Origin: a virus
Taxonomy: Duplodnaviria > Caudoviricetes
Virus record (IMG/VR): IMGVR_UViG_3300033121_000370
Location: 1-64,000 of that record
Length of the DNA: 64,000 nt
Direction: 5' to 3' (one strand)
Numbering within the stretch: the first letter of the stretch is position 1; each line of letters begins with the position of its first letter. The translations under genes were made by a program, and so were the position numbers. Of the stretch, positions 3,048 to 32,492 are shown piece by piece. The notes under the pieces are model-generated. The model was not told the origin of the DNA and made no database searches. It saw only the letters and a list, made by a program, of their open reading frames with translations.

Positions 3048-3617
3048 TTAGCCTACAGAAACTTTAGTCAAGTTCTGCTTGTTGATGAGCTGGACAAGAA
3101 CGTAGGGGTATGCGTCAGTAACAGCATTATCCGCACGGGTTGAAATGTCCAGAATCTTGACTAGACCTGTAGCTGCGTCATTGCGGCTAGCTGCCTGGAC
3201 GCGGCTGGTGGAGATGCCATAGGTAGTGTTACCTGTGCCAACAACAACGTCAAAGTTAGCGCCAACGTCACCCTGAGATACAGAACCATCGCACTGAATC
3301 TCAAAGACGCTCATTGGGTCAGTAATGACTAGAGCCTTGATTGTCTTACCAGGAGCAGCTGAAGTCCCCGCTACGAAGTAAGACTTGGGCTCACGTCCCT
3401 GGCCTTCTGGCTTGAGGCCAGCAAAGACGCCAATGGAGTAGTCGGTGCTTACAGTTACTTTCTGAATGGTACCATCGGTACCGAGCTTTACAAGGTCGCC
3501 CTTGAAGATGTTAGTGGCGTAGCTATTAGCAATAGGGTAGGTTACCATGCCGCCAATCGAGTGGCCGCTCTGGGAAAGTACGCTAATAAAACCACCATTT
3601 TTTAAAGATGAAGCCAT
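3048..3617 (-). CDS. head decoration/cement-type protein
   Basis: YPIANSYATNIFKGDLV..VITDP..FEIQCD pattern of pre-capsid head proteins. Confidence 0.6.
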   Translation of the reverse strand: MASSLKNGGFISVLSQSGHSIGGMVTYPIANSYATNIFKGDLVKLGTDGTIQKVTVSTDYSIGVFAGLKPEGQGREPKSYFVAGTSAAPGKTIKALVITDPMSVFEIQCDGSVSQGDVGANFDVVVGTGNTTYGISTSRVQAASRNDAATGLVKILDISTRADNAVTDAYPYVLVQLINKQNLTKVSVG

Positions 3618-3664
3618 CTTGGTGTTTCCTTATTAAGGGGTTAAAAGTCCTGTTTGGTGAAGGA

Positions 3665-4303
3665 TTACTCTTCTAGCAAATCTGTGTCGCCGGAGACTTC
3701 CTCGTGAATTTCTTCTGCTTTGCGCTGAGCGCGTGTAACAAAGGAACGTCTACCGGATGAGATATTACCTGGTCGAGATACTTCTGAGAGTACACCCTTG
3801 GACCTACGGAGGGTTTCCTCTTCCTTAACTTCTATTAGTGCTTCGCGCACTTCAATAGGAACCTTAGTAAGGGCAAGGTCGCCTACGGTAATGATGTCTC
3901 CATAGAGACTGTGATTTACGGGGGTATATCCGAAAGCCAGCTCAGGAGCCTCTTCTTTCGTTACGAACGTATACCCTAGTTCCAGCCAACGAGCTACATT
4001 AGCTGGGTCGTCTCGTCCGTACTCAGAAGTTTTTAACCGGGTCCAGCGCCAAGCGTAGCCCTGACGAGCTAGACGGTCAGCTGTTGCTTCCGGGATTAGA
4101 AGGACATTGGTGTAAAGAACTCGCTTCATCTTCTGCTTAAGCGCTTCTTTCAGAGCCTTGGTTGACCCTGCTCGAGTCATACCAGCTCCTGTCTTGGATG
4201 AGCGAGTGTCTGCTGCTCGTAGTTCTACAGCATCAGGTACTTCGGCAGCAATAGCGGCAGAAGTGGAGCGTTGGGGAGCTGATGTTTTTGGGGGTAAAGC
4301 CAT
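3665..4303 (-). CDS. head-module hypothetical protein
   Basis: 212-aa ORF with YAWRWTR..LELGYTFV; lies between scaffold and decoration genes. Confidence 0.6.
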   Translation of the reverse strand: MALPPKTSAPQRSTSAAIAAEVPDAVELRAADTRSSKTGAGMTRAGSTKALKEALKQKMKRVLYTNVLLIPEATADRLARQGYAWRWTRLKTSEYGRDDPANVARWLELGYTFVTKEEAPELAFGYTPVNHSLYGDIITVGDLALTKVPIEVREALIEVKEEETLRRSKGVLSEVSRPGNISSGRRSFVTRAQRKAEEIHEEVSGDTDLLEE

Positions 4304-16654: not shown

Positions 16655-16669
16655 AACAGTTAAACCATT

Positions 16670-16866
16670 ACAGGTGGTGTGGAGCAGTGGTAGCTCCACT
16701 CTGGCGGACGAAGCCCTAGCGTTACCGGGAAACCGGCCCGCCTAAGCGGGTTAAGTACTCTTATGTCACCTTCAGACCACTGAGAGTACTGAGTTAGGAA
16801 GCAGTCAGAAATATCGGAGTTTGAAGGCCCGACCAGTTATCCTTATAAGACCGACTGGCCACCTGT
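16670..16866 (+). ncRNA. candidate 197-nt multibranch structured RNA with a tRNA-like 5' end
   Basis: closing stem ACAGGTGG/CCACCTGT; D-arm GAGC-AGTGGTA-GCTC; CCGG-GAAA-CCGG; CCCGC/GCGGG; AGTACTCT/AGAGTACT; CAGTC/GACTG. Confidence 0.6.
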
Positions 16867-16897
16867 TCTATTACCCTCTAACTAGGAGTAACCTACT

Positions 16898-17413: not shown

Positions 17414-18631
17414 ATGAAGGTATTCGAGGGAATCCGTGTGCCTATCAAGGCTTGGACAGACGGGGTAGAGTTAGAGGATGAGGCCAAGCAACAGCTAGTT
17501 AACCTTAGCTCTCTCCCGTTCGTACACAAGCACGTAGCTGTTATGCCTGACGTTCACTGGGGCAAAGGAGCTACGGTTGGCTCAGTCATAGCTACCAAGG
17601 GTGCTGTAGTCCCAGCTGCTGTAGGTGTAGACATAGGCTGTGGCATGATTGCCTGTATGACGAGCCTAGTAGCCAATGATTTGCCAGATAACCTATCACA
17701 AATACGCTCAGCTATAGAGCAAGCTGTGCCCCACGGACGTTCAGATAACGGAGGCTTGGCTGATAAAGGAAGACATCTAGGAGAGTTACCTAGTGAGGCT
17801 TCCAGTAATTTCCTAAGCTTACTAAATAGCCTGAACCAAATAGTAGAAGCAGCCCCCATTCTTGCTAAGCCAGCTGCTGCCTGTAGCCGACACATGGGCA
17901 CTCTTGGTACCGGCAATCACTTCATTGAGATTTGCCTAGACGAGGCTGACCGGGTTTGGATTATGCTCCACTCAGGTAGCCGGGGTATCGGTAACGCTAT
18001 CGGTACCTACTACATCAACAAGGCCAAGGAAGAGATGCGTAAGTACTTCATCAACCTTCCTGATGCAGACTTAGCCTATCTCCCAGAGGATACTCAGGCG
18101 TACAAGGAGTACCTAAGAGCTGTAGAGTGGGCTCAGGAGTTTTCAAAGGCTAATCGGGAAACCATGATGAGCCTTGTTGTATCCAGCTTGAAGAAGTCCT
18201 TAGGCCGAGAATTTACAAGCGCTGTGGTAGCTGTGAACTGCCATCACAACTATGTCTCTACTGAGAGACACTACGGAGAGAACTTGGTTATCACCCGTAA
18301 GGGTGCAGTATCTGCTAGGGAAGGGGAACTAGGCATTATCCCCGGCTCTATGGGTGCTAAGTCCTACATTGTCCGAGGTAAGGGCAACCGGGAGAGTTTC
18401 TGTAGCTGTTCCCACGGAGCAGGGCGTAGGTTATCTCGCAACAAGGCAAGGGAAGCTTTCACCCTTGAAGACCATGCTAGGGCAACTGCTGGTGTTGAGT
18501 GCCGTAAGGATGCCGAGGTCTTGGATGAGACACCGGGAGCCTATAAGGACATTGACGCAGTTATGCAAGCTCAAGCCGACCTAGTGGACATTGTTCACAC
18601 ACTAAAGCAGTTGGTTTGTATCAAAGGTTGA
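17414..18631 (+). CDS. rtcB: RtcB RNA ligase
   Basis: MPDVHWGKG, AVGVDIGCGM, GTLGTGNHF, HSGSRG, CHHNY, HGAGR, DETPGAYKDI, C-terminal KG. Confidence 0.95.
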   Translation: MKVFEGIRVPIKAWTDGVELEDEAKQQLVNLSSLPFVHKHVAVMPDVHWGKGATVGSVIATKGAVVPAAVGVDIGCGMIACMTSLVANDLPDNLSQIRSAIEQAVPHGRSDNGGLADKGRHLGELPSEASSNFLSLLNSLNQIVEAAPILAKPAAACSRHMGTLGTGNHFIEICLDEADRVWIMLHSGSRGIGNAIGTYYINKAKEEMRKYFINLPDADLAYLPEDTQAYKEYLRAVEWAQEFSKANRETMMSLVVSSLKKSLGREFTSAVVAVNCHHNYVSTERHYGENLVITRKGAVSAREGELGIIPGSMGAKSYIVRGKGNRESFCSCSHGAGRRLSRNKAREAFTLEDHARATAGVECRKDAEVLDETPGAYKDIDAVMQAQADLVDIVHTLKQLVCIKG

Positions 18632-19266: not shown

Positions 19267-21057
19267 ATGCCTGAACTTACCCCTGACGAGAGAGCAAGAG
19301 TTATCGGAGCATTAGAAAGGACTAATGCTATCCTAGAAGGAATTCCCTTCAGAGAGGAGTTCTATCTAAGTTACCGGGACGGAAGACCTATTCCTGAGTC
19401 CGCCCTTAGCTTCAGTATTGCCTTACCTCTTTCTGAGAAGAAACGTTGGTGCTTTTTTAAGCTCCACAGCAACGGTCGAAGAGATTTCCGAGAAATGAGC
19501 CTTAGCGGGGCTGACCTCCGCGGGGCTGACCTCCGCGGGGCTGACCTCAGCTGGGCTAACCTTAGCGGGGCTAACCTTAGCGGGGCTAACCTTAGCGGGG
19601 TTGGCCTCCGCAGGGCTGACCTTAGCGAGGCTAACCTCAGCTGGGCTAACCTTAGCGAGGCTAACCTTAGCGGGGCTAATCTCAGCAGGGCTGACCTTAG
19701 CGAGGCTAACCTTAGCGGGGCTAATCTCAGCAGGGCTGACCTCAGCAGGGCTGACCTCAGCAGGGCTGACCTCAGCAGGGCTGACCTTAGCGAGGCTGAC
19801 CTCAGCAGGGCTGACCTCAGCAGGGCTAATCTCAGCAGGGCTAATCTCAGCAGGGCTGACCTTAGCGAGGTTACTCTTGTGGGGGTTGACCTCCGCGGGG
19901 CTGACCTCCGCGGGGCTGACCTCCGCGGGGCTACTATTACTTCACCTACTACAGAGGGGAAACCTGACCCAATGTCTATATATGAACCAGTAGAGAGGGC
20001 TATAGGCAGAAAGACGCCGCCTACCTTAATGAATTACTCGGACTCACCGGCAGCTGTGTACGGGGGAGCCTATGTTGTAACAGCTGCCGAGCTAGCCAAG
20101 ATTACCGAAGGGGTTAAGCGAAGTAAAAACAACACCCTCCCTGATTTACTCCTTATGGGGGTAGAGCTTGAGGTAGAGCCCTTTGACACACAGGCTAGTC
20201 TTCCTGACGAAGAGGCCCGACGCCTAGCTAAAAGCGTAGCTGGGTGGGCCATCCTTAAGTCTGATGGTTCCTTGGGAAGAGGAGGCCGAGAGATTGTTAC
20301 CCGGCCTATGACCTTGGATGCCCATAGAGTAGCTTGGATGGAGTTCTTCAGGGACAAGCCTCACGAATACCTATCATCCTGGAAGAGTGGGCGCTGTGGC
20401 TTACACGTACACCTAAACAGGGCTGCTATTAGCCCCCTAACAGAGGGTAAACTAATCAGCTTCCTGAATGCTCCGAGTAACGTAAAGTTTACTCAGGACA
20501 TTGCTGGGCGTAACTTACTCCACAATGAATACGCTGCTATCGCTCCCCTAAAGAAGATAACAGAAGGCTTTAGAAGACACCGAGTAACATCTGGTGGACC
20601 TATGAAGAGATTGCTAACTGGGGGAAACCGCACAGGTAGTCGCCACACAGCTACAAACATCTCTCAGCGCAACAGTGGGACTACCTTGGAGGTAAGAATC
20701 TTCCGAGGTAACATTGGGCGCAACGGGGTGTTTCGGGTATTGGAGTTCCTGCACGCCCTTGTTAGCTACCTTAGCCTGAACACTAACTCAGCCACTACGG
20801 TAGACAACTGGCTGGATTTTGTAACTTGGTTCGGAGAGCCAGAAAATTCCAAGGCTTACCCCGAGTTCTACCAGTGGCTCCTTGTGAAGAAGTACCTGTT
20901 TCCTAAACCTATCAGAAACATTAGCAAAGCTCCCCAGCTCCTGCGAGAGAAGAAAGTAGCTTTGCTGAAGTTCAGCCTGGGAGAGGATGAGCCTACAGAT
21001 ATGGTAAAGGAACAACCCAACGGAGAGGAGACAAGCGAAGCATGTGTGTCATTCTAG
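19267..21057 (+). CDS. pentapeptide-repeat protein fused to a COOH-NH2 ligase (amidoligase_2-type) domain
   Basis: 29 (D/N)LSxA repeats, then GVELEVE, KSDGSL, EIVT, CGLHVH, TLEVRIFRG. Confidence 0.85.
   Translation: MPELTPDERARVIGALERTNAILEGIPFREEFYLSYRDGRPIPESALSFSIALPLSEKKRWCFFKLHSNGRRDFREMSLSGADLRGADLRGADLSWANLSGANLSGANLSGVGLRRADLSEANLSWANLSEANLSGANLSRADLSEANLSGANLSRADLSRADLSRADLSRADLSEADLSRADLSRANLSRANLSRADLSEVTLVGVDLRGADLRGADLRGATITSPTTEGKPDPMSIYEPVERAIGRKTPPTLMNYSDSPAAVYGGAYVVTAAELAKITEGVKRSKNNTLPDLLLMGVELEVEPFDTQASLPDEEARRLAKSVAGWAILKSDGSLGRGGREIVTRPMTLDAHRVAWMEFFRDKPHEYLSSWKSGRCGLHVHLNRAAISPLTEGKLISFLNAPSNVKFTQDIAGRNLLHNEYAAIAPLKKITEGFRRHRVTSGGPMKRLLTGGNRTGSRHTATNISQRNSGTTLEVRIFRGNIGRNGVFRVLEFLHALVSYLSLNTNSATTVDNWLDFVTWFGEPENSKAYPEFYQWLLVKKYLFPKPIRNISKAPQLLREKKVALLKFSLGEDEPTDMVKEQPNGEETSEACVSF
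19498..19932 (+). repeat. 29 x 15-nt tandem repeat encoding pentapeptides
   Basis: units such as GACCTCAGCAGGGCT, AACCTTAGCGGGGCT, GACCTCCGCGGGGCT recur identically. Confidence 0.95.
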
Positions 21058-22040
21058 AAATACCACCCGGTGTAAAGGTATCCCGAAAAACTCTTGAGAT
21101 TTGCTACGATAATAACCCACACGGCTGGGGTATTATGTGGCACGAGCCCACCGAGAATAAGATTTGGTACGCAAAGGACACAACATCCTTTGATAAGTTC
21201 TGGGATGTGTGGAAGGATGTTCCCGAGGATACTCCCCGAGGTGTTCACTTCCGCATCAAGACCCACGGCAAGGTAGACAGGGACAACTGCCACCCGTTCT
21301 TTATCTCCCAGAACCTAGGACTTATGCACAACGGAGTCTTGGATGTAGAAGAAGCCAACAAAGCTTTCTCTGACACTTGGCACTTCGTAGAGTATGACCT
21401 GAAGCCTCTTCTACAGCTAGGTGATACCAGTCTGCTGCAACCGGGTATGCCCTTGAGTGAGGTAATAGAAGACTTCGTAAGCGTAGGCTCTCGCCTTCTG
21501 TTCATGGATAACCTAGGGGAGACTGTACGCTTCGGTAAGTCTTGGCACGAGGAGAACGGGGTCTTCTACAGTAACTCCTACTCCCATAAGTCTAAGAAGC
21601 ACACGTATACATCCTTTAAGGGAAAAGATGCTTACGACGACTACTGGGAGCAGCGGGCCAACTATTCCTACAGGGCTCCCCCGGCCCCTCCACCACCAAC
21701 AACAACGGAGAAAGACCTGAAGCTAATAGAAAAAGAGGTTAGCCAAACCCTTACTGAAGAGGAGAAGGCCGAGGGTATTGAACTTCTGGATATTGAGTTT
21801 GATACCTATGACAAGGCTAACAAGTACCGCAAGGAAAACGGTGGCTTTGTTCGGGTATCCAAGGGAGTCTTTACCGTGTGTAATACCCGAGTGAAAGTCC
21901 CCAAGGAGACTACTTCTGGAGTGCTTAAGTCTGTAACTAGCCTCACGGACTTCAGCTTTCTTTCAGATGCGGAGAAGCTGGAGTACATTAAGACGTACCC
22001 AGAAGATACCTTGGATTTACTGTACGAAGCAATCCTGTAA
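21042..22040 (+). CDS. class II (Ntn) glutamine amidotransferase
   Basis: MCVI N-terminal Cys, NPHGWG, HFRIKTHG, NCHPF, MHNG, SDT. Confidence 0.85.
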   Translation: MCVILEIPPGVKVSRKTLEICYDNNPHGWGIMWHEPTENKIWYAKDTTSFDKFWDVWKDVPEDTPRGVHFRIKTHGKVDRDNCHPFFISQNLGLMHNGVLDVEEANKAFSDTWHFVEYDLKPLLQLGDTSLLQPGMPLSEVIEDFVSVGSRLLFMDNLGETVRFGKSWHEENGVFYSNSYSHKSKKHTYTSFKGKDAYDDYWEQRANYSYRAPPAPPPPTTTEKDLKLIEKEVSQTLTEEEKAEGIELLDIEFDTYDKANKYRKENGGFVRVSKGVFTVCNTRVKVPKETTSGVLKSVTSLTDFSFLSDAEKLEYIKTYPEDTLDLLYEAIL

Positions 22041-23734: not shown

Positions 23735-23763
23735 TTGCCCTAGAAGGTAGCTTAGGCTATACT
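23735..23763 (+). promoter_or_regulatory. promoter for the Y-RNA/Ro60 unit
   Basis: TTGCCC-N17-TATACT. Confidence 0.65.
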
Positions 23764-23781
23764 CAGGAAAGAGAGAGAGAT

Positions 23782-23928
23782 TGTACTTGGTAGTGTTAGT
23801 AAGCAGTTACTTCTCATTGGCGAGAGAGACACGGGTTCGATTCCCGTAGCCCTGCCTTATCTATTATGTAGGGCTTCGTCTAGTGGTAGGACACTTAAAT
23901 ATCTGCTTGCGACTGTTCTCCAGGTACA
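23782..23928 (+). ncRNA. yrlA: YrlA-type Y RNA with a permuted tRNA-like domain
   Basis: T-arm ACGGG-TTCGATT-CCCGT, loop-closed acceptor AGCCCTGC/GTAGGGCT, D-arm GTCT-AGTGGTA-GGAC, enclosed by GTAAGCAG/CTGCTTGC and TGTACTTGG/CCAGGTACA; just upstream of Ro60. Confidence 0.85.
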
Positions 23929-23933
23929 GCCTA

Positions 23934-24005
23934 TTTACCTAGTGTTGAGTGCTTCGGTTACTTCTTTCGGTGAAAATACACCGAGGCTATTGTTACCTGG
24001 GTAAA
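23934..24005 (+). ncRNA. short Y-RNA-like hairpin without a tRNA domain
   Basis: TTTACCTAG/CTGGGTAAA and GCTTCGGT/ACCGAGGC; shares TAGTGTT..GTTACTTC and 3' TGTT with the first copy. Confidence 0.65.
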
Positions 24006-24011
24006 CCCCGT

Positions 24012-24083
24012 AGCTGTGGGTAGTGAATAAGTTGGTTTCATCTTGTAAATGACTCGCCAGCTTAGCTGAGTACTCCCACAGCT
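24012..24083 (+). ncRNA. third Y-RNA-like hairpin
   Basis: AGCTGTGGG/CCCACAGCT and TAAGTTGG/CCAGCTTA around a TAGTG internal loop. Confidence 0.5.
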
Positions 24084-24124: not shown

Positions 24125-25489
24125 ATGGCTAGTATCAATCAGGCTCGGGCTGTAGCGGCTCGCACAGAAGTAACCCACGGAGGAACTCCTGTCCGCCCGT
24201 ACTCTAACGAGCAGCAGCTTACACGAGCAGTGCTTAGCTGTATGCTTTGGGAAGACCAGTTCTACGAAGATGGCGTAGACATCGCTAAGCGTATCAGCCA
24301 GCTGGTACCTTTGTGTGGGCCTTCATTTGTAGCAGGGCTAGCTATAAAGGCTCGGAAAGAATGGGGTCTTCGCCACGTTCCTCTTCTTCTCACCGTAGAG
24401 ATGCTCAAGCATCCCCTCCACAAGGCCTACGTAAGTGAGGCAATTACTAGTGGAGCTATCCACCGGGCAGATGATATGTCCGAACTCTTGGCTCTTTATT
24501 GGAAAGATGGAAAGAAGCCGCTTGCCAAGCAGCTAAAGAAGGGACTTGCTACAGTTTTCACCAGGTTCAACAGCTATGCACTTGCCAAGTATAAGGGTTT
24601 TGACAAGGCTGTATCCCTACGTGACGTTCTGTTTATGGTACACCCTAAGCCAAAGAACGCTGAGCAAGCTAAGACTTTCAAGGAGTTAGCCGATAAGACA
24701 ATTGCTTCCCCGGATACTTGGGAAGTTGCCTTGTCAGGTGGGGCTAATAAGAAGGAAACATTTACCCGGCTTATCCAAGAGAGTAAGCTAGGCGGCCTCG
24801 CCCTGCTACGTAACATCCGTAACATGGAACAGGCAGGTGTGGATAAAGCTATCATAACCTTGGCTTTGGATAACATGGACTGCTCCCTCATTGAGCCCTT
24901 CCGGTTTATCGCCTGTAACAAGTATGCTAGCCCGGCACTAGAGCCAGCTATTGAGCGAGCCTTTCTCCGGGCCAGTAAGGCTTACCAAAGCCAAGCACTA
25001 GCTGCTAAATCTGTAGCAGTTCTTGTAGACCACTCGGGCTCTATGTTCCACACCAAGGTGTCGGCTAAGTCTGAGCTAGAGCGCTTCGATGCTGCTGTAG
25101 CCTTGGCAGCTATTGTTCGGGAAGCTTTTGATAACACTAGAGTTTTTAGCTTCGAGAATAAAGTAACTGAGGTTAAGCCACGTCACGGCTTCAGTCTTAT
25201 AGATGAGGTCAGGCGCTGCCCGAGCGGTGGAACTAAGCTGTTCGATGCCCTGCACCTAGTAAAGGACACGGTTAATCCAGATATTATAATCTGCATCACT
25301 GATGAACAAGACACAGGTGGTACTCACCACAGTATGCCTGACCTTAGCAAAGGTCAGCGAGGCTTTATCATTAATGTAGGCAGCTACAAGAATGGCATTA
25401 GCCACGGCCAGTGGACTAACATCACAGGGTTCTCGGATGCTGTGGTTAGGTACATTGTGGCTGACTTAAAAGGGTGTGAGGCTCTATAA
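24125..25489 (+). CDS. rsr: Ro60/TROVE-vWA RNA-binding protein (Rsr)
   Basis: LWEDQFYEDG, LRHVP, RADDMSELL, YALAKY, LRDVLF, DTWE, ALLRNIRN; vWA DHSGS..TDEQ. Confidence 0.95.
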   Translation: MASINQARAVAARTEVTHGGTPVRPYSNEQQLTRAVLSCMLWEDQFYEDGVDIAKRISQLVPLCGPSFVAGLAIKARKEWGLRHVPLLLTVEMLKHPLHKAYVSEAITSGAIHRADDMSELLALYWKDGKKPLAKQLKKGLATVFTRFNSYALAKYKGFDKAVSLRDVLFMVHPKPKNAEQAKTFKELADKTIASPDTWEVALSGGANKKETFTRLIQESKLGGLALLRNIRNMEQAGVDKAIITLALDNMDCSLIEPFRFIACNKYASPALEPAIERAFLRASKAYQSQALAAKSVAVLVDHSGSMFHTKVSAKSELERFDAAVALAAIVREAFDNTRVFSFENKVTEVKPRHGFSLIDEVRRCPSGGTKLFDALHLVKDTVNPDIIICITDEQDTGGTHHSMPDLSKGQRGFIINVGSYKNGISHGQWTNITGFSDAVVRYIVADLKGCEAL

Positions 25490-25547
25490 TCCTCCTCTAA
25501 GTCCCTACTAAGGGCCACCGGGAGTAGCTACCCGGTGAAGAGTTTAC

Positions 25548-25651
25548 GCACAGGTATCCAAGTGGCAACTGGCAAAGCCAGCCCGCTTGCGGGTAAGGAC
25601 GGGGACTGTACCGAAAGGGGTACGTTAGTTCGAATCTAGCCCTGTGCACCA
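25548..25651 (+). tRNA. tRNA-like RNA with a 28-nt D-loop insertion and no pairable anticodon stem
   Basis: acceptor GCACAGG/CCTGTGC, A73, encoded CCA, T-arm GTTAG-TTCGAAT-CTAGC; after GGGGACTGTA the complementary strand is absent. Confidence 0.7.
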
Positions 25652-25662
25652 CCCATAGCTTT

Positions 25663-25826
25663 CTCTAGGTGGGGCGTATAGATTCACGGATGAGCCTAAG
25701 TACTTAGTACCTCTGGGCCACATCGAGGTCGGGAGAGGTGTAGCTACCTAATGGTGATGAAGCTGCTTCTTAACCTTGGAAACCCGGATACGCTAAAGGC
25801 TTTCTAGAGGCCGTGCCCACCTAGAG
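25663..25826 (+). ncRNA. candidate 164-nt structured RNA with a long-range pseudoknot
   Basis: 11-bp CTCTAGGTGGG/CCCACCTAGAG, CACGG/CCGTG, AGCCT/AGGCT, TACCTCT/AGAGGTG, TAGCT/AGCTG; GCGTAT pairs with ATACGC. Confidence 0.6.
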
Positions 25827-25844
25827 GATTACCTAAATACAAGA

Positions 25845-26149: not shown

Positions 26150-26263
26150 ATGAAGAAGAAACCTAGTGTAGTAGCTAAGAACTTAGCTTCCCCTAGATAC
26201 CATCAAAGGGTGGTGCCTAACAAGAAGAAAGAAGTTAAACCTGAGATAACTGAGGAGGACTAA
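26150..26263 (+). CDS. 37-aa basic peptide
   Basis: AGGAG RBS; MKKKPSVVAKNLASPRYHQRVVPNKKK; not in the ORF track. Confidence 0.6.
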   Translation: MKKKPSVVAKNLASPRYHQRVVPNKKKEVKPEITEED

Positions 26264-26266
26264 CTA

Positions 26267-26572
26267 ATGCTATCACCACTTCAAACTGCCTATATCTCTC
26301 AGCCTAGAATTTCCAAGACTGACGGTGGGGATTATTTCTGCGTAGGTTACGTCTACGGAGATACTAAGGGGCGTTTCCTAGATGGAACCTTAATTCACAC
26401 CAGTAAGCTGGAGAAGATAGACCTAAGAAGCGGGTCTATAGATACTCTTAATTCTATTTACCGGATTGCTAGCGAGGCCGAAATTGCAACCTACCTACAG
26501 GCTAATAGAAATGGCAACGGCTGTAGCACTCACGTCTGCCGGTGTGGGCGGAAAGACTCATCAGACGTTTAG
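26267..26572 (+). CDS. hypothetical protein
   Basis: GAGGAGG RBS; GYVYGDTKGRFLDGTLIHTS. Confidence 0.6.
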   Translation: MLSPLQTAYISQPRISKTDGGDYFCVGYVYGDTKGRFLDGTLIHTSKLEKIDLRSGSIDTLNSIYRIASEAEIATYLQANRNGNGCSTHVCRCGRKDSSDV

Positions 26573-26867
26573 ACTAGGCTGTGTACTATACGACCGAAAG
26601 GGCCGTGTAGTCAAGGCCAAGGTAAACTCCCTGAAAACTCATCCAAAGATGGCCAAGCTAACCCCTTGGCCTTTTCTACATGCGGAACAGGCGTGTATCC
26701 TTAGCCAAGGCGTAGACAACTGCGAAGGCCTGAGCTTGTTGGTTGTCCGGGTGCGGAGGGATGGCAGCTACGGTATGGCTGAGCCGTGCGTTGTGTGCAA
26801 GAAATTAATAGAGGCAGCTGGAATAACTAATGTTCACTGGAGCACCCCGGAGTGGAGCGCTCGTTAA
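26511..26867 (+). CDS. Zn-dependent CMP/dCMP-type deaminase-fold protein
   Basis: HAE and PCVVC motifs. Confidence 0.8.
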   Translation: MATAVALTSAGVGGKTHQTFRLGCVLYDRKGRVVKAKVNSLKTHPKMAKLTPWPFLHAEQACILSQGVDNCEGLSLLVVRVRRDGSYGMAEPCVVCKKLIEAAGITNVHWSTPEWSAR

Positions 26868-27375: not shown

Positions 27376-27924
27376 ATGACGCTGTTTGCCGAGTTTCCTA
27401 AGATTTATCGCTTCTGGGAGCAAGATATTGTTGTAACCGAGAAGATTGATGGGACTAATGGCCTTATTCTTATCAACGAAGACCTGTCCGAGGTAAAGGC
27501 TGGTTCTCGCTCTAGGTTTATTACACCAACAAACGATAATTATGGATTTGCCAAGTGGGTCGAAGATAACAAGGAAGAGCTGAGAAAGCTTGGGCCGGGC
27601 TACCACTACGGAGAATGGTGGGGCCAGGGTATCCAGCGGGGGTATCGTATGCCGAGAAAGGTATTTAGCCTCTTTAATGTCCACCGTTGGTCCGACCCTC
27701 TGGTTAGGCCTAGCTGCTGTGACGTTGTACCTGTGGTATACCAAGGACTCATTCAGGGTTATCTGGAGAAGTTCCCTAACTACACAGCTGTTCCGAGCAC
27801 CTCGCCCGCAGCAGACCGTTATGGCGTAACGTTTACTGACGTTGAAGGTCTTATGCTTTACTTTACGAAGTCTGGGACGTACATGAAGCACCTAAAGAAG
27901 CCAGGCCACAAGGAGGAGAAGTAA
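27376..27924 (+). CDS. ATP-dependent RNA ligase, Rnl2-like adenylation domain only
   Basis: TEKIDGTN (motif I), YGEWWGQGIQ, FSLFN, EGLML. Confidence 0.8.
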   Translation: MTLFAEFPKIYRFWEQDIVVTEKIDGTNGLILINEDLSEVKAGSRSRFITPTNDNYGFAKWVEDNKEELRKLGPGYHYGEWWGQGIQRGYRMPRKVFSLFNVHRWSDPLVRPSCCDVVPVVYQGLIQGYLEKFPNYTAVPSTSPAADRYGVTFTDVEGLMLYFTKSGTYMKHLKKPGHKEEK

Positions 27925-31707: not shown

Positions 31708-32268
31708 ATGTCCAACGTCTACTTTTTGGCGGACTTACACCTAGGGCATAGGGCAATCCTAGGCTTCAACGACTCCTCTAATAAGCCCTTGAGGGTATTC
31801 CCAGGCGGAGTACCCGAAATGCACAAATACCTAGTGTCTAAATGGAATGCTAAGGTAGAGCCTAGCGCTAAGGTTATCGTTCTAGGAGATATTTTTCTAG
31901 TAGGTTCCTCTAGTGAGCCTGGCTACAAGGAACGCCTAGACGAGGTAGCAGAAGTACTTAGAAGCCTGAATGGAGCTACTAAGGTCCTAGTTATGGGTAA
32001 CCATGATGTAGACCCTTCGAAGCATCCTCTTCTGAAGGAAATCTTTCAGGTACACCTAGGTTGCTACCAGTTTAAGAGAGCCATCTGTACACATATTCCG
32101 GTACATCCTGGCTCTCTAGAAGGGCGCTTCGACTACAACATCCACGGCCACCTTCACACTTACCAGGTGAAGGATACTTTAGGTAATCCAGACCCTAGGT
32201 ACATTAACGTAGCCGTAGAGCAACTAGACTACACACCTAAGACTTATGAGGAGCTTACCAGCAGATGA
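31708..32268 (+). CDS. calcineurin-like metallophosphoesterase
   Basis: DLHLGH, LGD, GNHD, HIP, HGHLH motifs. Confidence 0.9.
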   Translation: MSNVYFLADLHLGHRAILGFNDSSNKPLRVFPGGVPEMHKYLVSKWNAKVEPSAKVIVLGDIFLVGSSSEPGYKERLDEVAEVLRSLNGATKVLVMGNHDVDPSKHPLLKEIFQVHLGCYQFKRAICTHIPVHPGSLEGRFDYNIHGHLHTYQVKDTLGNPDPRYINVAVEQLDYTPKTYEELTSR

Positions 32269-32435
32269 AGAAGTTACTAAGTGAAGAAGCTAAGGATGCC
32301 TCGGTAATCCTTATTCTGTTTGTAGGTGCTTTGTACCTCTTAGGCTGGGCTGCCTTTCACTCCCCAAAGGGAGGGCTGCCTAAGCCATCAACTGTAGTTT
32401 GTCAAGCATCGACTAATAGCGGGTTGGAGAAGTAG
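32265..32435 (+). CDS. small membrane protein overlapping the tRNA 5' end
   Basis: ATGA-coupled; VILILFVGALYLLGWAAF. Confidence 0.45.
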   Translation: MKKLLSEEAKDASVILILFVGALYLLGWAAFHSPKGGLPKPSTVVCQASTNSGLEK

Positions 32436-32492
32436 TATCTCGTCAGGCCCATAACCTGAAGACCACTGGTGCAATTCCAGTACCCGCACCCA
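32418..32492 (+). tRNA. tRNA-Met (CAT), initiator-like
   Basis: full cloverleaf, A1:A72 mismatch, TCAGG-CCCATAA-CCTGA, encoded CCA. Confidence 0.9.

What the first reader, a model, noticed from the sequence alone, without database searches (positions are those of the whole stretch)
25548..25651. tRNA-like RNA with a precise D-loop insertion and a disabled anticodon arm
Seen: intact acceptor stem, A73, CCA and T-arm. Removing 28 nt (25566-25593, two hairpins) restores a canonical D-arm TCC-AAGTGGTAA-GGA. The anticodon 5' strand GGGGA-CT-GTA is present but its complement is missing, and a GAAA-capped arm follows. Established: LeuRS largely ignores the anticodon and reads A73 plus the elbow; RtcB ligates spliced tRNAs. 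Inference: an aminoacylatable non-decoding mimic (T-box/RelA/toxin decoy or aminoacyl donor), or an RtcB-processed precursor.
Basis: partly seen in the sequence, partly recalled or inferred. Interest (0 to 1): 0.7.

Follow-up and report, generated by a model that had tools for sequence, protein, structure and literature searches.

The report
Disabled phage tRNA-Tyr gene beside Ro60
The flagged RNA is a phage tyrosine-tRNA gene that lost half of its anticodon arm and later gained a hairpin-forming insert, so it can no longer decode; it is most likely a gene relic, though a leftover structural or processing role cannot be excluded.

Summary
Window 25548-25651 (+) has a perfect 7-bp acceptor stem, A73, CCA, a canonical T-arm, a D-arm interrupted by an insert, and no anticodon arm. 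ARAGORN and Rfam do not call it.

Three rare relatives explain it as a stepwise series:
- L333 has an intact class II tRNA-Tyr(GTA) at the orthologous site.
- L335 (96% identical to the window) has the same gene with a 10-nt deletion removing the 3' half of the anticodon loop and stem.
- The window has that deletion plus a net 26-nt insertion in the D-loop.

The "GAAA-capped arm" is the ancestral variable arm fused to the leftover anticodon. The insert's first 17-18 nt are an exact inverted copy of the 5' part of a tRNA-Asn-like gene in a fourth relative (L331). Thermodynamically the insert pairs with the D-loop rather than forming two neat hairpins.

The gene lies in a phage RtcB/Ro60(Rsr)/Y-RNA cluster, 58 nt after rsr and 9-12 nt before a conserved structured RNA. 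A canonical YrlA lies on the other side of rsr, so this is not the locus's Y RNA.

Best reading: a non-decoding tRNA-Tyr relic, perhaps still processed (about 0.55). An exapted tRNA mimic is possible (about 0.3), because evidence of constraint is only suggestive. The spliced-precursor idea is rejected.

The parts
25548..25651 (+). The flagged element: a tRNA-Tyr(GTA)-derived gene, 104 nt, non-decoding
   Evidence: Sequence. The orthologous intact tRNA-Tyr is in L333 and the deletion-only allele is in L335. Not called by ARAGORN or Rfam.
25548..25554 (+). Acceptor stem 5' strand; pairs with 25641-25647
   Evidence: 7 of 7 Watson-Crick pairs, pair probability 0.998. Identical in L333 and L335 (A5).
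25557..25566 (+). D-stem 5' strand TCC and the ancestral D-loop 5' half AAGTGGC (includes G18 G19)
   Evidence: Alignment A5. In the window's RNA this half is predicted to pair with the insert instead.
25567..25593 (+). Lineage-specific insertion (net +26 nt) in the variable pocket of the D-loop. It holds CTGGC-AAA-GCCAG and CCCG-CTTG-CGGG.
   Evidence: Absent from L335 and L333. Its first 17-18 nt are an exact reverse complement of L331 2381-2398. It is unique in the window.
25594..25600 (+). Rest of the D-loop (TAA), D-stem 3' strand GGA, and position 26
   Evidence: Alignment A5.
25601..25610 (+). Orphan anticodon-stem 5' strand GGGGA, C32 U33, and the former anticodon GTA. The 10-nt deletion lies between 25610 and 25611.
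   Evidence: L333 has GGGGA-CTGTAAA-TCCTC here. The window and L335 lack AATCCTCTCT (A2, A5).
25608..25623 (+). New 5-bp hairpin GTACC-GAAAGG-GGTAC, made of the former anticodon plus the ancestral variable arm (CC-GAAA-GG core)
   Evidence: pair probability 0.97-0.996. Variable-arm origin is shown by L333 and by 60+ tRNA-Ser hits to the CCGAAAGGGG + T-arm pattern.
25624..25640 (+). T-arm GTTAG-TTCGAAT-CTAGC
   Evidence: Two substitutions against L333 (C>T giving G.U in the stem, A>G in the loop) keep the arm canonical.
25641..25651 (+). Acceptor 3' strand, discriminator A73, and encoded CCA
   Evidence: Identical in L333 and L335.
25461..25490 (+). Promoter-like site CTGACT-18-TATAAT at the end of rsr
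   Evidence: Consensus scan only. The sequence is kept in L335.
25501..25537 (+). Leader with two hairpins. The second (25516-25537, CACCGGG...CCCGGTG) is conserved.
   Evidence: It is 91% identical in L331 although rsr is only 72% identical. It is also present in L333 and L335.
25664..25830 (+). Neighbouring conserved structured RNA ('RNA#2'), starting 12 nt after the CCA
   Evidence: Four homologues; 51 predicted pairs, 9 with double compensatory changes. Fold z = -2.4. No Rfam family.
24125..25489 (+). rsr: Ro60/TROVE protein with a vWA domain, immediately upstream
   Evidence: Pfam PF05731 and vWA families. phrog_850. Thousands of TROVE homologues.
23800..23912 (+). Canonical circularly permuted YrlA on the other side of rsr (context)
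   Evidence: Manual anatomy. RF02553 full-length but sub-threshold: 18.5 bits here, 39 bits for the L333 homologue, 28 bits for L331.
17414..18631 (+). RtcB RNA ligase (context)
   Evidence: Pfam PF01139, 440 bits.

Best explanation
The element is a disabled tRNA-Tyr(GUA) gene.

An ancestral phage class II tRNA-Tyr lay just downstream of rsr, in a cluster of small-RNA genes. It suffered two successive changes:
1. A 10-nt deletion removed positions 37-38, the 3' strand of the anticodon stem and the first bases of the variable arm. This change is shared with L335.
2. In the window's lineage only, a net 26-nt insertion entered the D-loop. Its first part is an inverted copy of the 5' portion of a tRNA-Asn-like gene of a related phage. 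That makes it a recombination or template-switch scar, not an intron.

The product cannot decode. Because the acceptor/T-arm minihelix, A73 and the encoded CCA are intact, the transcript is probably still cut by RNase P and matured at its 3' end like a tRNA. Any remaining use is most likely in cis, as a tRNA-shaped processing punctuation that frees the 5' end of the conserved RNA starting 12 nt downstream.

Shown: the tRNA-Tyr origin, the two lesions and their order, the loss of decoding, and the origin of the insert. Inferred: transcription, processing, and the absence of a trans-acting function.
For: - Intact orthologue: ARAGORN calls tRNA-Tyr(gta) at L333 3500-3587, directly after the same conserved leader hairpin. 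Its MFE is the cloverleaf.
- Intermediate allele: L335 is 96% identical over 3.4 kb and has the same deletion but a normal D-arm.
- Detectors call neither the 104-nt form nor the 78-nt form.
- The phage has no other tRNA-Tyr; tRNA-Met is its only called tRNA.
- The insert's first 17-18 nt are an exact reverse complement of L331 2381-2398, which Rfam aligns as tRNA positions around 6-19 of an Asn-type gene. The shuffle test gives score 34 against a null maximum of 29.
- The insert is predicted to sequester G18/G19 and abolish the D-stem, with pair probability 0.99 against 0.000.
- There is no Ro60-binding GNCGAAG-type module in the element and no RF02553 hit.
- A canonical YrlA plus two YrlB-like RNAs already sit upstream of rsr.
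- This small-RNA region is rearranged between relatives: extra segments of 125 and 270 nt in L333, and a different order in L331.
- Precedent for tRNAs co-transcribed with Y RNAs: D. radiodurans Yrn2-tRNA-Asp-Yrn1 (PMC4201824).
Against: - Since the deletion, the 78 shared nucleotides show 0-1 substitutions between the window and L335. This compares with 12.8% divergence at 4-fold sites of rsr and 7.3% in the flanking non-coding DNA, giving P(<=1) of 3e-4 and 0.019.
- All four substitutions relative to L333 keep the structure. One of them (GGGGTTC>GGGGTAC) completes a new 5-bp hairpin.
- Phage genomes rarely keep dead DNA.
- The gene sits between a conserved leader and a conserved RNA.

These points are weakened by patchy divergence. 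Substitution-free intervals of 97-155 nt occur six other times, including 137 nt inside rsr, and at the regional rate P(no substitution in 78 nt) = 0.06.
Confidence: 0.55

Rival explanations
1. Exapted tRNA mimic. After losing its anticodon arm, the tRNA-Tyr gene was kept as a non-decoding, tRNA-shaped RNA that acts in trans with the phage's RNA-surveillance and repair set (Rsr, RtcB, Rnl2-type ligase). It could act as a decoy or adaptor for tRNA-binding enzymes, in the way the tRNA-like domain of YrlA does. On this reading it is an early stage of the tRNA-to-Y-RNA conversion seen in other phages.
For: - The low substitution count since the deletion and the structure-preserving changes.
- Perfect acceptor, T-arm and CCA.
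- Position in an rsr/Y-RNA/RtcB cluster.
- Other phages carry covarying Y RNAs built as complete tRNAs with the anticodon arm replaced: A4 has 17 of 33 pairs compensatory.
- YrlA is a substrate of tRNA enzymes (PMC4201824).
Against: - Only two genomes carry the deleted form, and divergence between them is patchy.
- There is no Ro60-binding motif in the element.
- The locus already has a YrlA.
- The window's insert is an inverted scrap of another tRNA gene and is predicted to destroy the D-arm and elbow.
- No homologue was found among 143 other rsr loci.
Confidence: 0.3
2. Aminoacylatable minihelix-type donor or decoy. The RNA is charged, now presumably with Tyr, and feeds a non-ribosomal aminoacyl transfer or titrates a sensor of tRNA charging.
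For: G1-C72, A73, CCA and the long extra arm of bacterial tRNA-Tyr are retained.
Against: - The anticodon GUA is a major TyrRS identity element in bacteria (my knowledge), and here it is buried in a stem.
- No aminoacyl-transferase gene was seen among the neighbours examined.
- T-box and RelA sensing both need an anticodon.
- The LeuRS premise is wrong, because the ancestor is tRNA-Tyr.
Confidence: 0.05
3. Intron-containing precursor. The D-loop insert is removed from the RNA and the halves are joined by the phage RtcB to give a working tRNA.
For: RtcB is encoded 7 kb upstream, and removing the insert recreates a canonical D-arm.
Against: - The insert-free form exists naturally (L335) and still lacks the 3' strand of the anticodon stem, so splicing cannot restore decoding.
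- There is no bulge-helix-bulge motif.
- The insert is a DNA polymorphism with an inverted tRNA-Asn-gene origin.
Confidence: 0.02

Closest known systems
Phage-encoded class II tRNA-Tyr(GUA), represented by the orthologue in relative L333
   Same: Same site after the conserved leader hairpin. Identical acceptor stem, D-stem, anticodon-stem 5' strand, variable-arm core, A73 and CCA. There are 74 identical bases out of the 78 alignable.
   Different: It lacks 10 nt (half of the anticodon loop and stem), carries a net 26 extra nt in the D-loop, and is not recognised by tRNA detectors. It cannot decode.
YrlA / Yrn1 bacterial and phage Y RNAs (Rfam RF02553; Chen et al. 2014, PMC4201824)
   Same: tRNA-like T-arm, D-arm and acceptor, encoded next to rsr on the same strand. 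Yrn1 also has the order D, then a short arm with a 5-bp stem and 6-nt loop, then T, with no variable arm.
   Different: There is no Ro60-binding stem or GNCGAAN0-1G motif, no circular permutation, free CCA-ended termini, and no RF02553 match. The real YrlA of this phage lies upstream of rsr.
tRNA pseudogenes and relics in tRNA-rich phage genomes
   Same: A recognisable tRNA gene with disabling indels, next to genes that in relatives sit inside arrays of 10-25 tRNAs.
   Different: All helices except the anticodon arm are still perfect. Substitutions are fewer than expected. It lies in a cluster of conserved small RNAs.
tRNA-like processing punctuation (mitochondrial tRNA punctuation; MALAT1 mascRNA; MHV68 vtRNA-miRNA units). 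Cited from my own knowledge.
   Same: A non-decoding tRNA-shaped module directly abutting another non-coding RNA, where RNase P or RNase Z cuts would define the neighbour's end.
   Different: Those are eukaryotic or organellar systems with experimental proof. Here processing is only inferred, and relative L333 has the neighbouring RNA without an adjacent tRNA.
tmRNA tRNA-like domain
   Same: Acceptor plus T-arm plus D-loop with no anticodon arm, and a CCA end.
   Different: tmRNA is split by a large mRNA/pseudoknot domain, is charged with Ala and works with SmpB. ARAGORN finds no tmRNA here.

Membership tests
Functional (decoding) tRNA | Complete cloverleaf with a 5-bp anticodon stem and 7-nt loop; recognised by tRNA detectors | tested here: not met
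   No ARAGORN call. No RF00005 hit even at E<=10. The 3' strand of the anticodon stem is deleted relative to L333.
Functional (decoding) tRNA | 7-bp acceptor stem, discriminator, CCA, and a T-arm with a TTCRANY loop | tested here: met
tRNA-Tyr gene lineage (by descent) | Orthologous position and sequence identity to a bona fide tRNA-Tyr | tested here: met
   L333 3500-3587 is tRNA-Tyr(gta). Alignments A2 and A5. Same leader hairpin upstream.
tRNA pseudogene / relic | Disabling lesions absent from an intact orthologue | tested here: met
   A 10-nt deletion and a net 26-nt insertion.
tRNA pseudogene / relic | Neutral evolution after inactivation | tested here: inconclusive
   0-1 substitutions in 78 nt against 12.8% at 4-fold sites. 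But long substitution-free patches are common in this genome pair.
YrlA (RF02553) | Encoded within a few kb of rsr on the same strand | tested here: met
   58 nt downstream of rsr, on the + strand.
YrlA (RF02553) | Permuted order (T-arm, closed acceptor-like hairpin, D-arm), enclosed by a stem carrying GNCGAAN0-1G | tested here: not met
   Natural tRNA order with free ends; no such stem or motif; no RF02553 hit.
YrlA (RF02553) | Binding by Rsr/Ro60 | not testable with these tools
   Needs co-immunoprecipitation.
Intron-containing pre-tRNA | Removing the insert yields a complete tRNA, and the insert is bounded by a splicing motif | tested here: not met
   The insert-free allele L335 still lacks half of the anticodon arm, and there is no bulge-helix-bulge motif.

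The most novel reading that the evidence does not exclude
A tRNA gene caught in the act of becoming a non-decoding tRNA mimic. The anticodon-less tRNA-Tyr derivative is kept by selection in the phage's Ro60/RtcB small-RNA cluster. It would act as a tRNA-shaped partner or decoy, or as the processing handle of the adjacent conserved RNA. That would document the first step of the route by which phages turned tRNA genes into Y-RNA-type mimics.
Probability: 0.3. Interest if true: 0.6.

Novelty: new member of a known kind. Interest (0 to 1): 0.33.

Why it matters
As a relic it is ordinary, but it is unusually well documented. Three allelic states (intact, deleted, deleted plus insert) in near-identical phages show how a phage tRNA gene is lost, and how a piece of another tRNA gene can be pasted in upside down.

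If the deleted form is in fact maintained, it would be a natural intermediate between a tRNA and the tRNA-like modules of Y RNAs. The origin of those modules from tRNAs has been proposed but never observed.

The surrounding locus (RtcB, Ro60, YrlA, further motif-bearing hairpin RNAs, and two unclassified structured RNAs) is a compact phage version of the bacterial rsr-yrlBA-rtcBA RNA-repair system. It deserves experimental attention more than the flagged element itself.

Tried and rejected
**Detection and homology searches that found nothing useful**
- ARAGORN and Rfam, at gathering scores and at E<=10, find nothing at the element.
- nhmmer with the single sequence found nothing in 63 phage loci.
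- A single-sequence covariance model (R1) found only ordinary tRNAs at 13-39 bits in 63 viral and 80 metagenome rsr loci.
- megablast and blastn against GenBank phages gave no match.
- The last protein search, for C-terminal Rsr fragments on short contigs, found nothing.

**Viral-contig pattern scans**
- CCGAAAGGGG + T-arm returned tRNA-Ser and other class II tRNAs.
- The core of the neighbouring RNA gave one chance hit, L332.
- The leader hairpin gave none.
- The anticodon-region pattern covering both alleles gave none.
- The insert 18-mer gave one unrelated hit, L338. So the insert is not a dispersed mobile element.

**Ideas rejected**
- *The element is this locus's YrlA.* No: the canonical YrlA is upstream of rsr.
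- *The GAAA arm is the Ro60-binding motif.* No: it is the ancestral variable arm, present in the intact tRNA-Tyr.
- *The neighbouring RNA carries a conserved Ro motif.* No: that segment is replaced in L333.
- *The insert is homologous to the tandem hairpins of the RtcB-upstream RNA.* My post-hoc pattern matched, but an unbiased alignment test did not: score 21 against a shuffled mean of 22.
- *Leu identity.* No: the ancestor is tRNA-Tyr.

**Constraint test**
It looked strong against 4-fold sites but is undermined by patchy divergence.

Full report
**What is there**

Window 25548-25651 (+) reads as a tRNA with two defects. Its parts, in order, are:
- a 7-bp Watson-Crick acceptor stem, then TA;
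- D-stem TCC/GGA enclosing AAGTGGC, a 27-nt insert and TAA;
- C26, then GGGGA-CT-GTA with no complementary strand;
- a hairpin GTACC-GAAAGG-GGTAC that abuts a canonical T-arm (GTTAG-TTCGAAT-CTAGC);
- the acceptor 3' strand, A73 and CCA.

ARAGORN finds only a tRNA-Met (32418-32492) in the window. Rfam reports nothing at the element, either at gathering scores or at E<=10.

**Context**

The record is a complete 72.7-kb virus genome. The genes around the element are:
- The gene ending 58 nt upstream (24125-25489) encodes a TROVE/Ro60 protein with a vWA domain, i.e. Rsr.
- RtcB lies at 17414-18631.
- A PF09414 RNA ligase lies at 27376-27924, a deaminase at 26466-26867 and a metallophosphoesterase at 31708-32268.
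- Upstream of rsr (23735-24083) lie a canonical, circularly permuted YrlA and two further hairpin RNAs carrying the same TAGTG...GTTACTTC module. RF02553 matches the YrlA full-length but below threshold in the window, L333 and L331.

So the phage carries the rsr/Y-RNA/rtcB set described for Salmonella and others (PMC4201824). The flagged element is not its YrlA.

**Relatives**

Rsr homologues in IMG/VR, JGI metagenomes and GTDB genomes are at most 51% identical. In those phages rsr is typically embedded in arrays of 10-25 tRNA genes. A covariance model of the element found only ordinary tRNAs in 143 such loci.

The large protein collection gave four useful contigs:
- **L333** has the same gene order as the window, with rsr 90% identical in DNA. 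It carries an intact class II tRNA-Tyr(GTA), called by ARAGORN at 3500-3587. Its minimum-energy fold is the cloverleaf.
- **L335** is 96% identical to the window across 3.4 kb. It carries a 78-nt version with a normal D-arm (TCC-AAGTGGCTAAA-GGA) but lacks AATCCTCTCT. That is the last two anticodon-loop bases, the 3' strand of the anticodon stem and the start of the variable arm.
- **The window** has this same deletion plus the D-loop insert.

The order of events is therefore intact tRNA-Tyr, then deletion, then insertion. The "GAAA-capped arm" is the ancestral variable arm. This explains why the pattern CCGAAAGGGG + T-arm retrieves mostly tRNA-Ser genes. After the deletion the old anticodon GUA plus C pairs with GUAC, and one substitution (GGGGTTC to GGGGTAC) makes this a perfect 5-bp stem. 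That change cannot be polarised without an outgroup. The phage has no other tRNA-Tyr.

**The insert**
- It is unique in the window and is not a dispersed repeat in viral contigs.
- Its first 17-18 nt are the exact reverse complement of L331 2381-2398. The shuffle test gives score 34, against a null mean of 19.3 and a maximum of 29 in 1,000 shuffles.
- In L331 (rsr 79% identical in protein, 72% in DNA) that stretch is the end of the acceptor strand, the D-stem and the D-loop of a tRNA-Asn-like gene. Rfam matches that gene at 30.2 bits over model positions 8-63 only, and ARAGORN does not call it.
- Like the window's element, the L331 gene lies directly 5' of the conserved neighbouring RNA.
- The insert thus looks like an inverted scrap of another tRNA gene, i.e. 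a recombination or template-switch scar.
- Energetically it does not sit in the D-loop as two tidy hairpins. Its CCGCUUG pairs with the D-loop's CAAGUGG, stacked on CUGGC/GCCAG. Those pairs have probabilities of 0.57-0.99, while the D-stem and the CUUG hairpin are at 0.001 or less. The cloverleaf-like fold is 6.1 kcal/mol worse than the MFE. Tertiary contacts are not modelled, so this is an indication, not proof.

**Is the disabled gene still under selection?**

Between the window and L335 the divergence figures are:

| Region | Differences | Rate |
|---|---|---|
| 4-fold sites of rsr | 28/218 | 12.8% |
| 4-fold sites, last 450 nt of rsr | 11/65 | 17% |
| Flanking non-coding DNA | 13/177 | 7.3% |
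| The element's 78 shared nt | 0-1 | 0-1.3% |

This gives P(<=1) of 3e-4 at the neutral rate and 0.019 at the flanking rate.

However, divergence in this pair is patchy. From 25771 onwards the genomes are nearly identical. Within the diverged part, substitution-free runs of 97-155 nt occur six other times, including 137 nt inside rsr. With uniform placement the probability of no hit in the 78 nt is 0.06. The signal is suggestive only.

**Mechanism**

Decoding is lost; this is shown. The acceptor/T-arm minihelix with A73 and CCA is what bacterial RNase P and the 3'-end machinery mainly recognise (established knowledge). A promoter-like site lies at 25461-25490, and a leader hairpin conserved across all four relatives precedes the gene. 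The conserved structured RNA at 25664-25830 starts 12 nt after the CCA.

The most economical reading is a relic that is still transcribed and trimmed like a tRNA, and that at most helps to define the ends of its neighbours. D. radiodurans offers a precedent: its Y RNAs are made from a precursor with tRNA-Asp (PMC4201824). L333 has the neighbouring RNA without an adjacent tRNA, so such a role is not obligatory.

A trans-acting tRNA-mimic role is the main rival. It gains some plausibility from other phages, where covarying RNAs next to rsr are complete tRNAs whose anticodon arm is replaced by the Y-RNA module. Earlier follow-ups in this scan reported the same architecture on other DNA.

The spliced-precursor idea is excluded by the natural alleles. 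The Leu-based charging argument falls away because the ancestor is tRNA-Tyr.

**Verdict**

The element is a new, well-documented case of a known kind of thing: a tRNA-derived relic or tRNA-like gene in a phage Ro60/Y-RNA cluster. Interest is modest unless experiments show that it is retained for a function.

Noticed in passing
window 25664-25830 (+); homologues at L335 about 2779-2945, L333 3858-4012, L331 2463-2630: A conserved structured RNA of about 165 nt, closed by an 11-18-bp terminal helix. RNAalifold on four sequences predicts 51 pairs, 9 with double compensatory changes. The central hairpin is swapped for a different one in L333. There is no Rfam family, and it is not obviously a Y RNA.
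   Followed up: partly
window 23735-24083 (+): Upstream of rsr lie three tandem Y-RNA-type genes. One is a circularly permuted YrlA (about 23785-23925; T-arm ACGGG-TTCGATT-CCCGT, closed acceptor-like hairpin, D-arm GTC-TAGTGGTA-GGAC). The other two are hairpin RNAs sharing the TAGTG...GTTACTTC module. RF02553 scores are all below the gathering threshold.
   Followed up: partly
L024-L061 (AT-rich, roughly 100-kb viral contigs), 200-900 nt downstream of rsr, e.g. L030:4517-4658: One or two RNAs of 130-145 nt per locus are built as complete tRNAs in natural order. All seven pairs of the 7-bp acceptor covary and the D-arm and T-arm are present. A long stem carrying GTAG...GAGTTACTTC replaces the anticodon arm (17 of 33 pairs compensatory). 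This is an un-permuted, free-ended YrlA. The same architecture was reported earlier in this scan on other DNA (e1-5779044).
   Followed up: partly
L331:2377-2456 (+): A tRNA-Asn(GTT)-like gene directly 5' of the conserved RNA. The D-arm, anticodon arm, T-arm and GCCA are normal, but the acceptor 5' strand pairs poorly (one mismatch, one G.U, and an extra connector base). ARAGORN does not call it. Its 5' part is the inverted source-like match to the window's insert.
   Followed up: partly
window 16668-16868 (+): A strongly structured non-coding element of about 200 nt upstream of ORF169 and RtcB (z = -4.2; 0 of 200 shuffles fold as well). It is closed by ACAGGTGG/CCACCTGT and contains a D-arm-like hairpin GGAGC-AGTGGTA-GCTCC and a GACGAAG sequence that fits the GNCGAAG Ro-binding motif. 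No Rfam match.
   Followed up: partly
window 25516-25537 (+); L331 2777-2798; also in L333 and L335: The leader hairpin CACCGGG-N8-CCCGGTG followed by AGAGTTTA is 91% identical in L331, although rsr is only 72% identical there. It precedes a different RNA in L333 (a 125-nt insert-specific segment), so it looks like a portable processing or transcription signal.
   Followed up: no
L333:3391-3499 and 3588-3857: L333 has two extra non-coding segments absent from the window. One, of about 110 nt, is closed by GGGGTGG/CCCACCCC and lies between the leader and the tRNA-Tyr. The other, of about 270 nt, lies between the tRNA-Tyr and the conserved RNA. They may be further small RNAs.
   Followed up: no
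window about 26257; L335 3375-3788; L333 4050-4439: The window lacks a gene of about 130 aa that both close relatives carry between the 37-aa ORF (26150-26263) and ORF101 (26267-26572). This is a 415-nt indel.
   Followed up: no
window 19267-22040 (+): A pentapeptide-repeat protein with a weak amidoligase-family PHROG match in its C-terminal part (phrog_7469, E = 7.5e-4). It is followed by an ORF with a weak, sub-threshold match to class-II glutamine amidotransferase (PF13230, 16.8 bits against a cutoff of 23).
   Followed up: no
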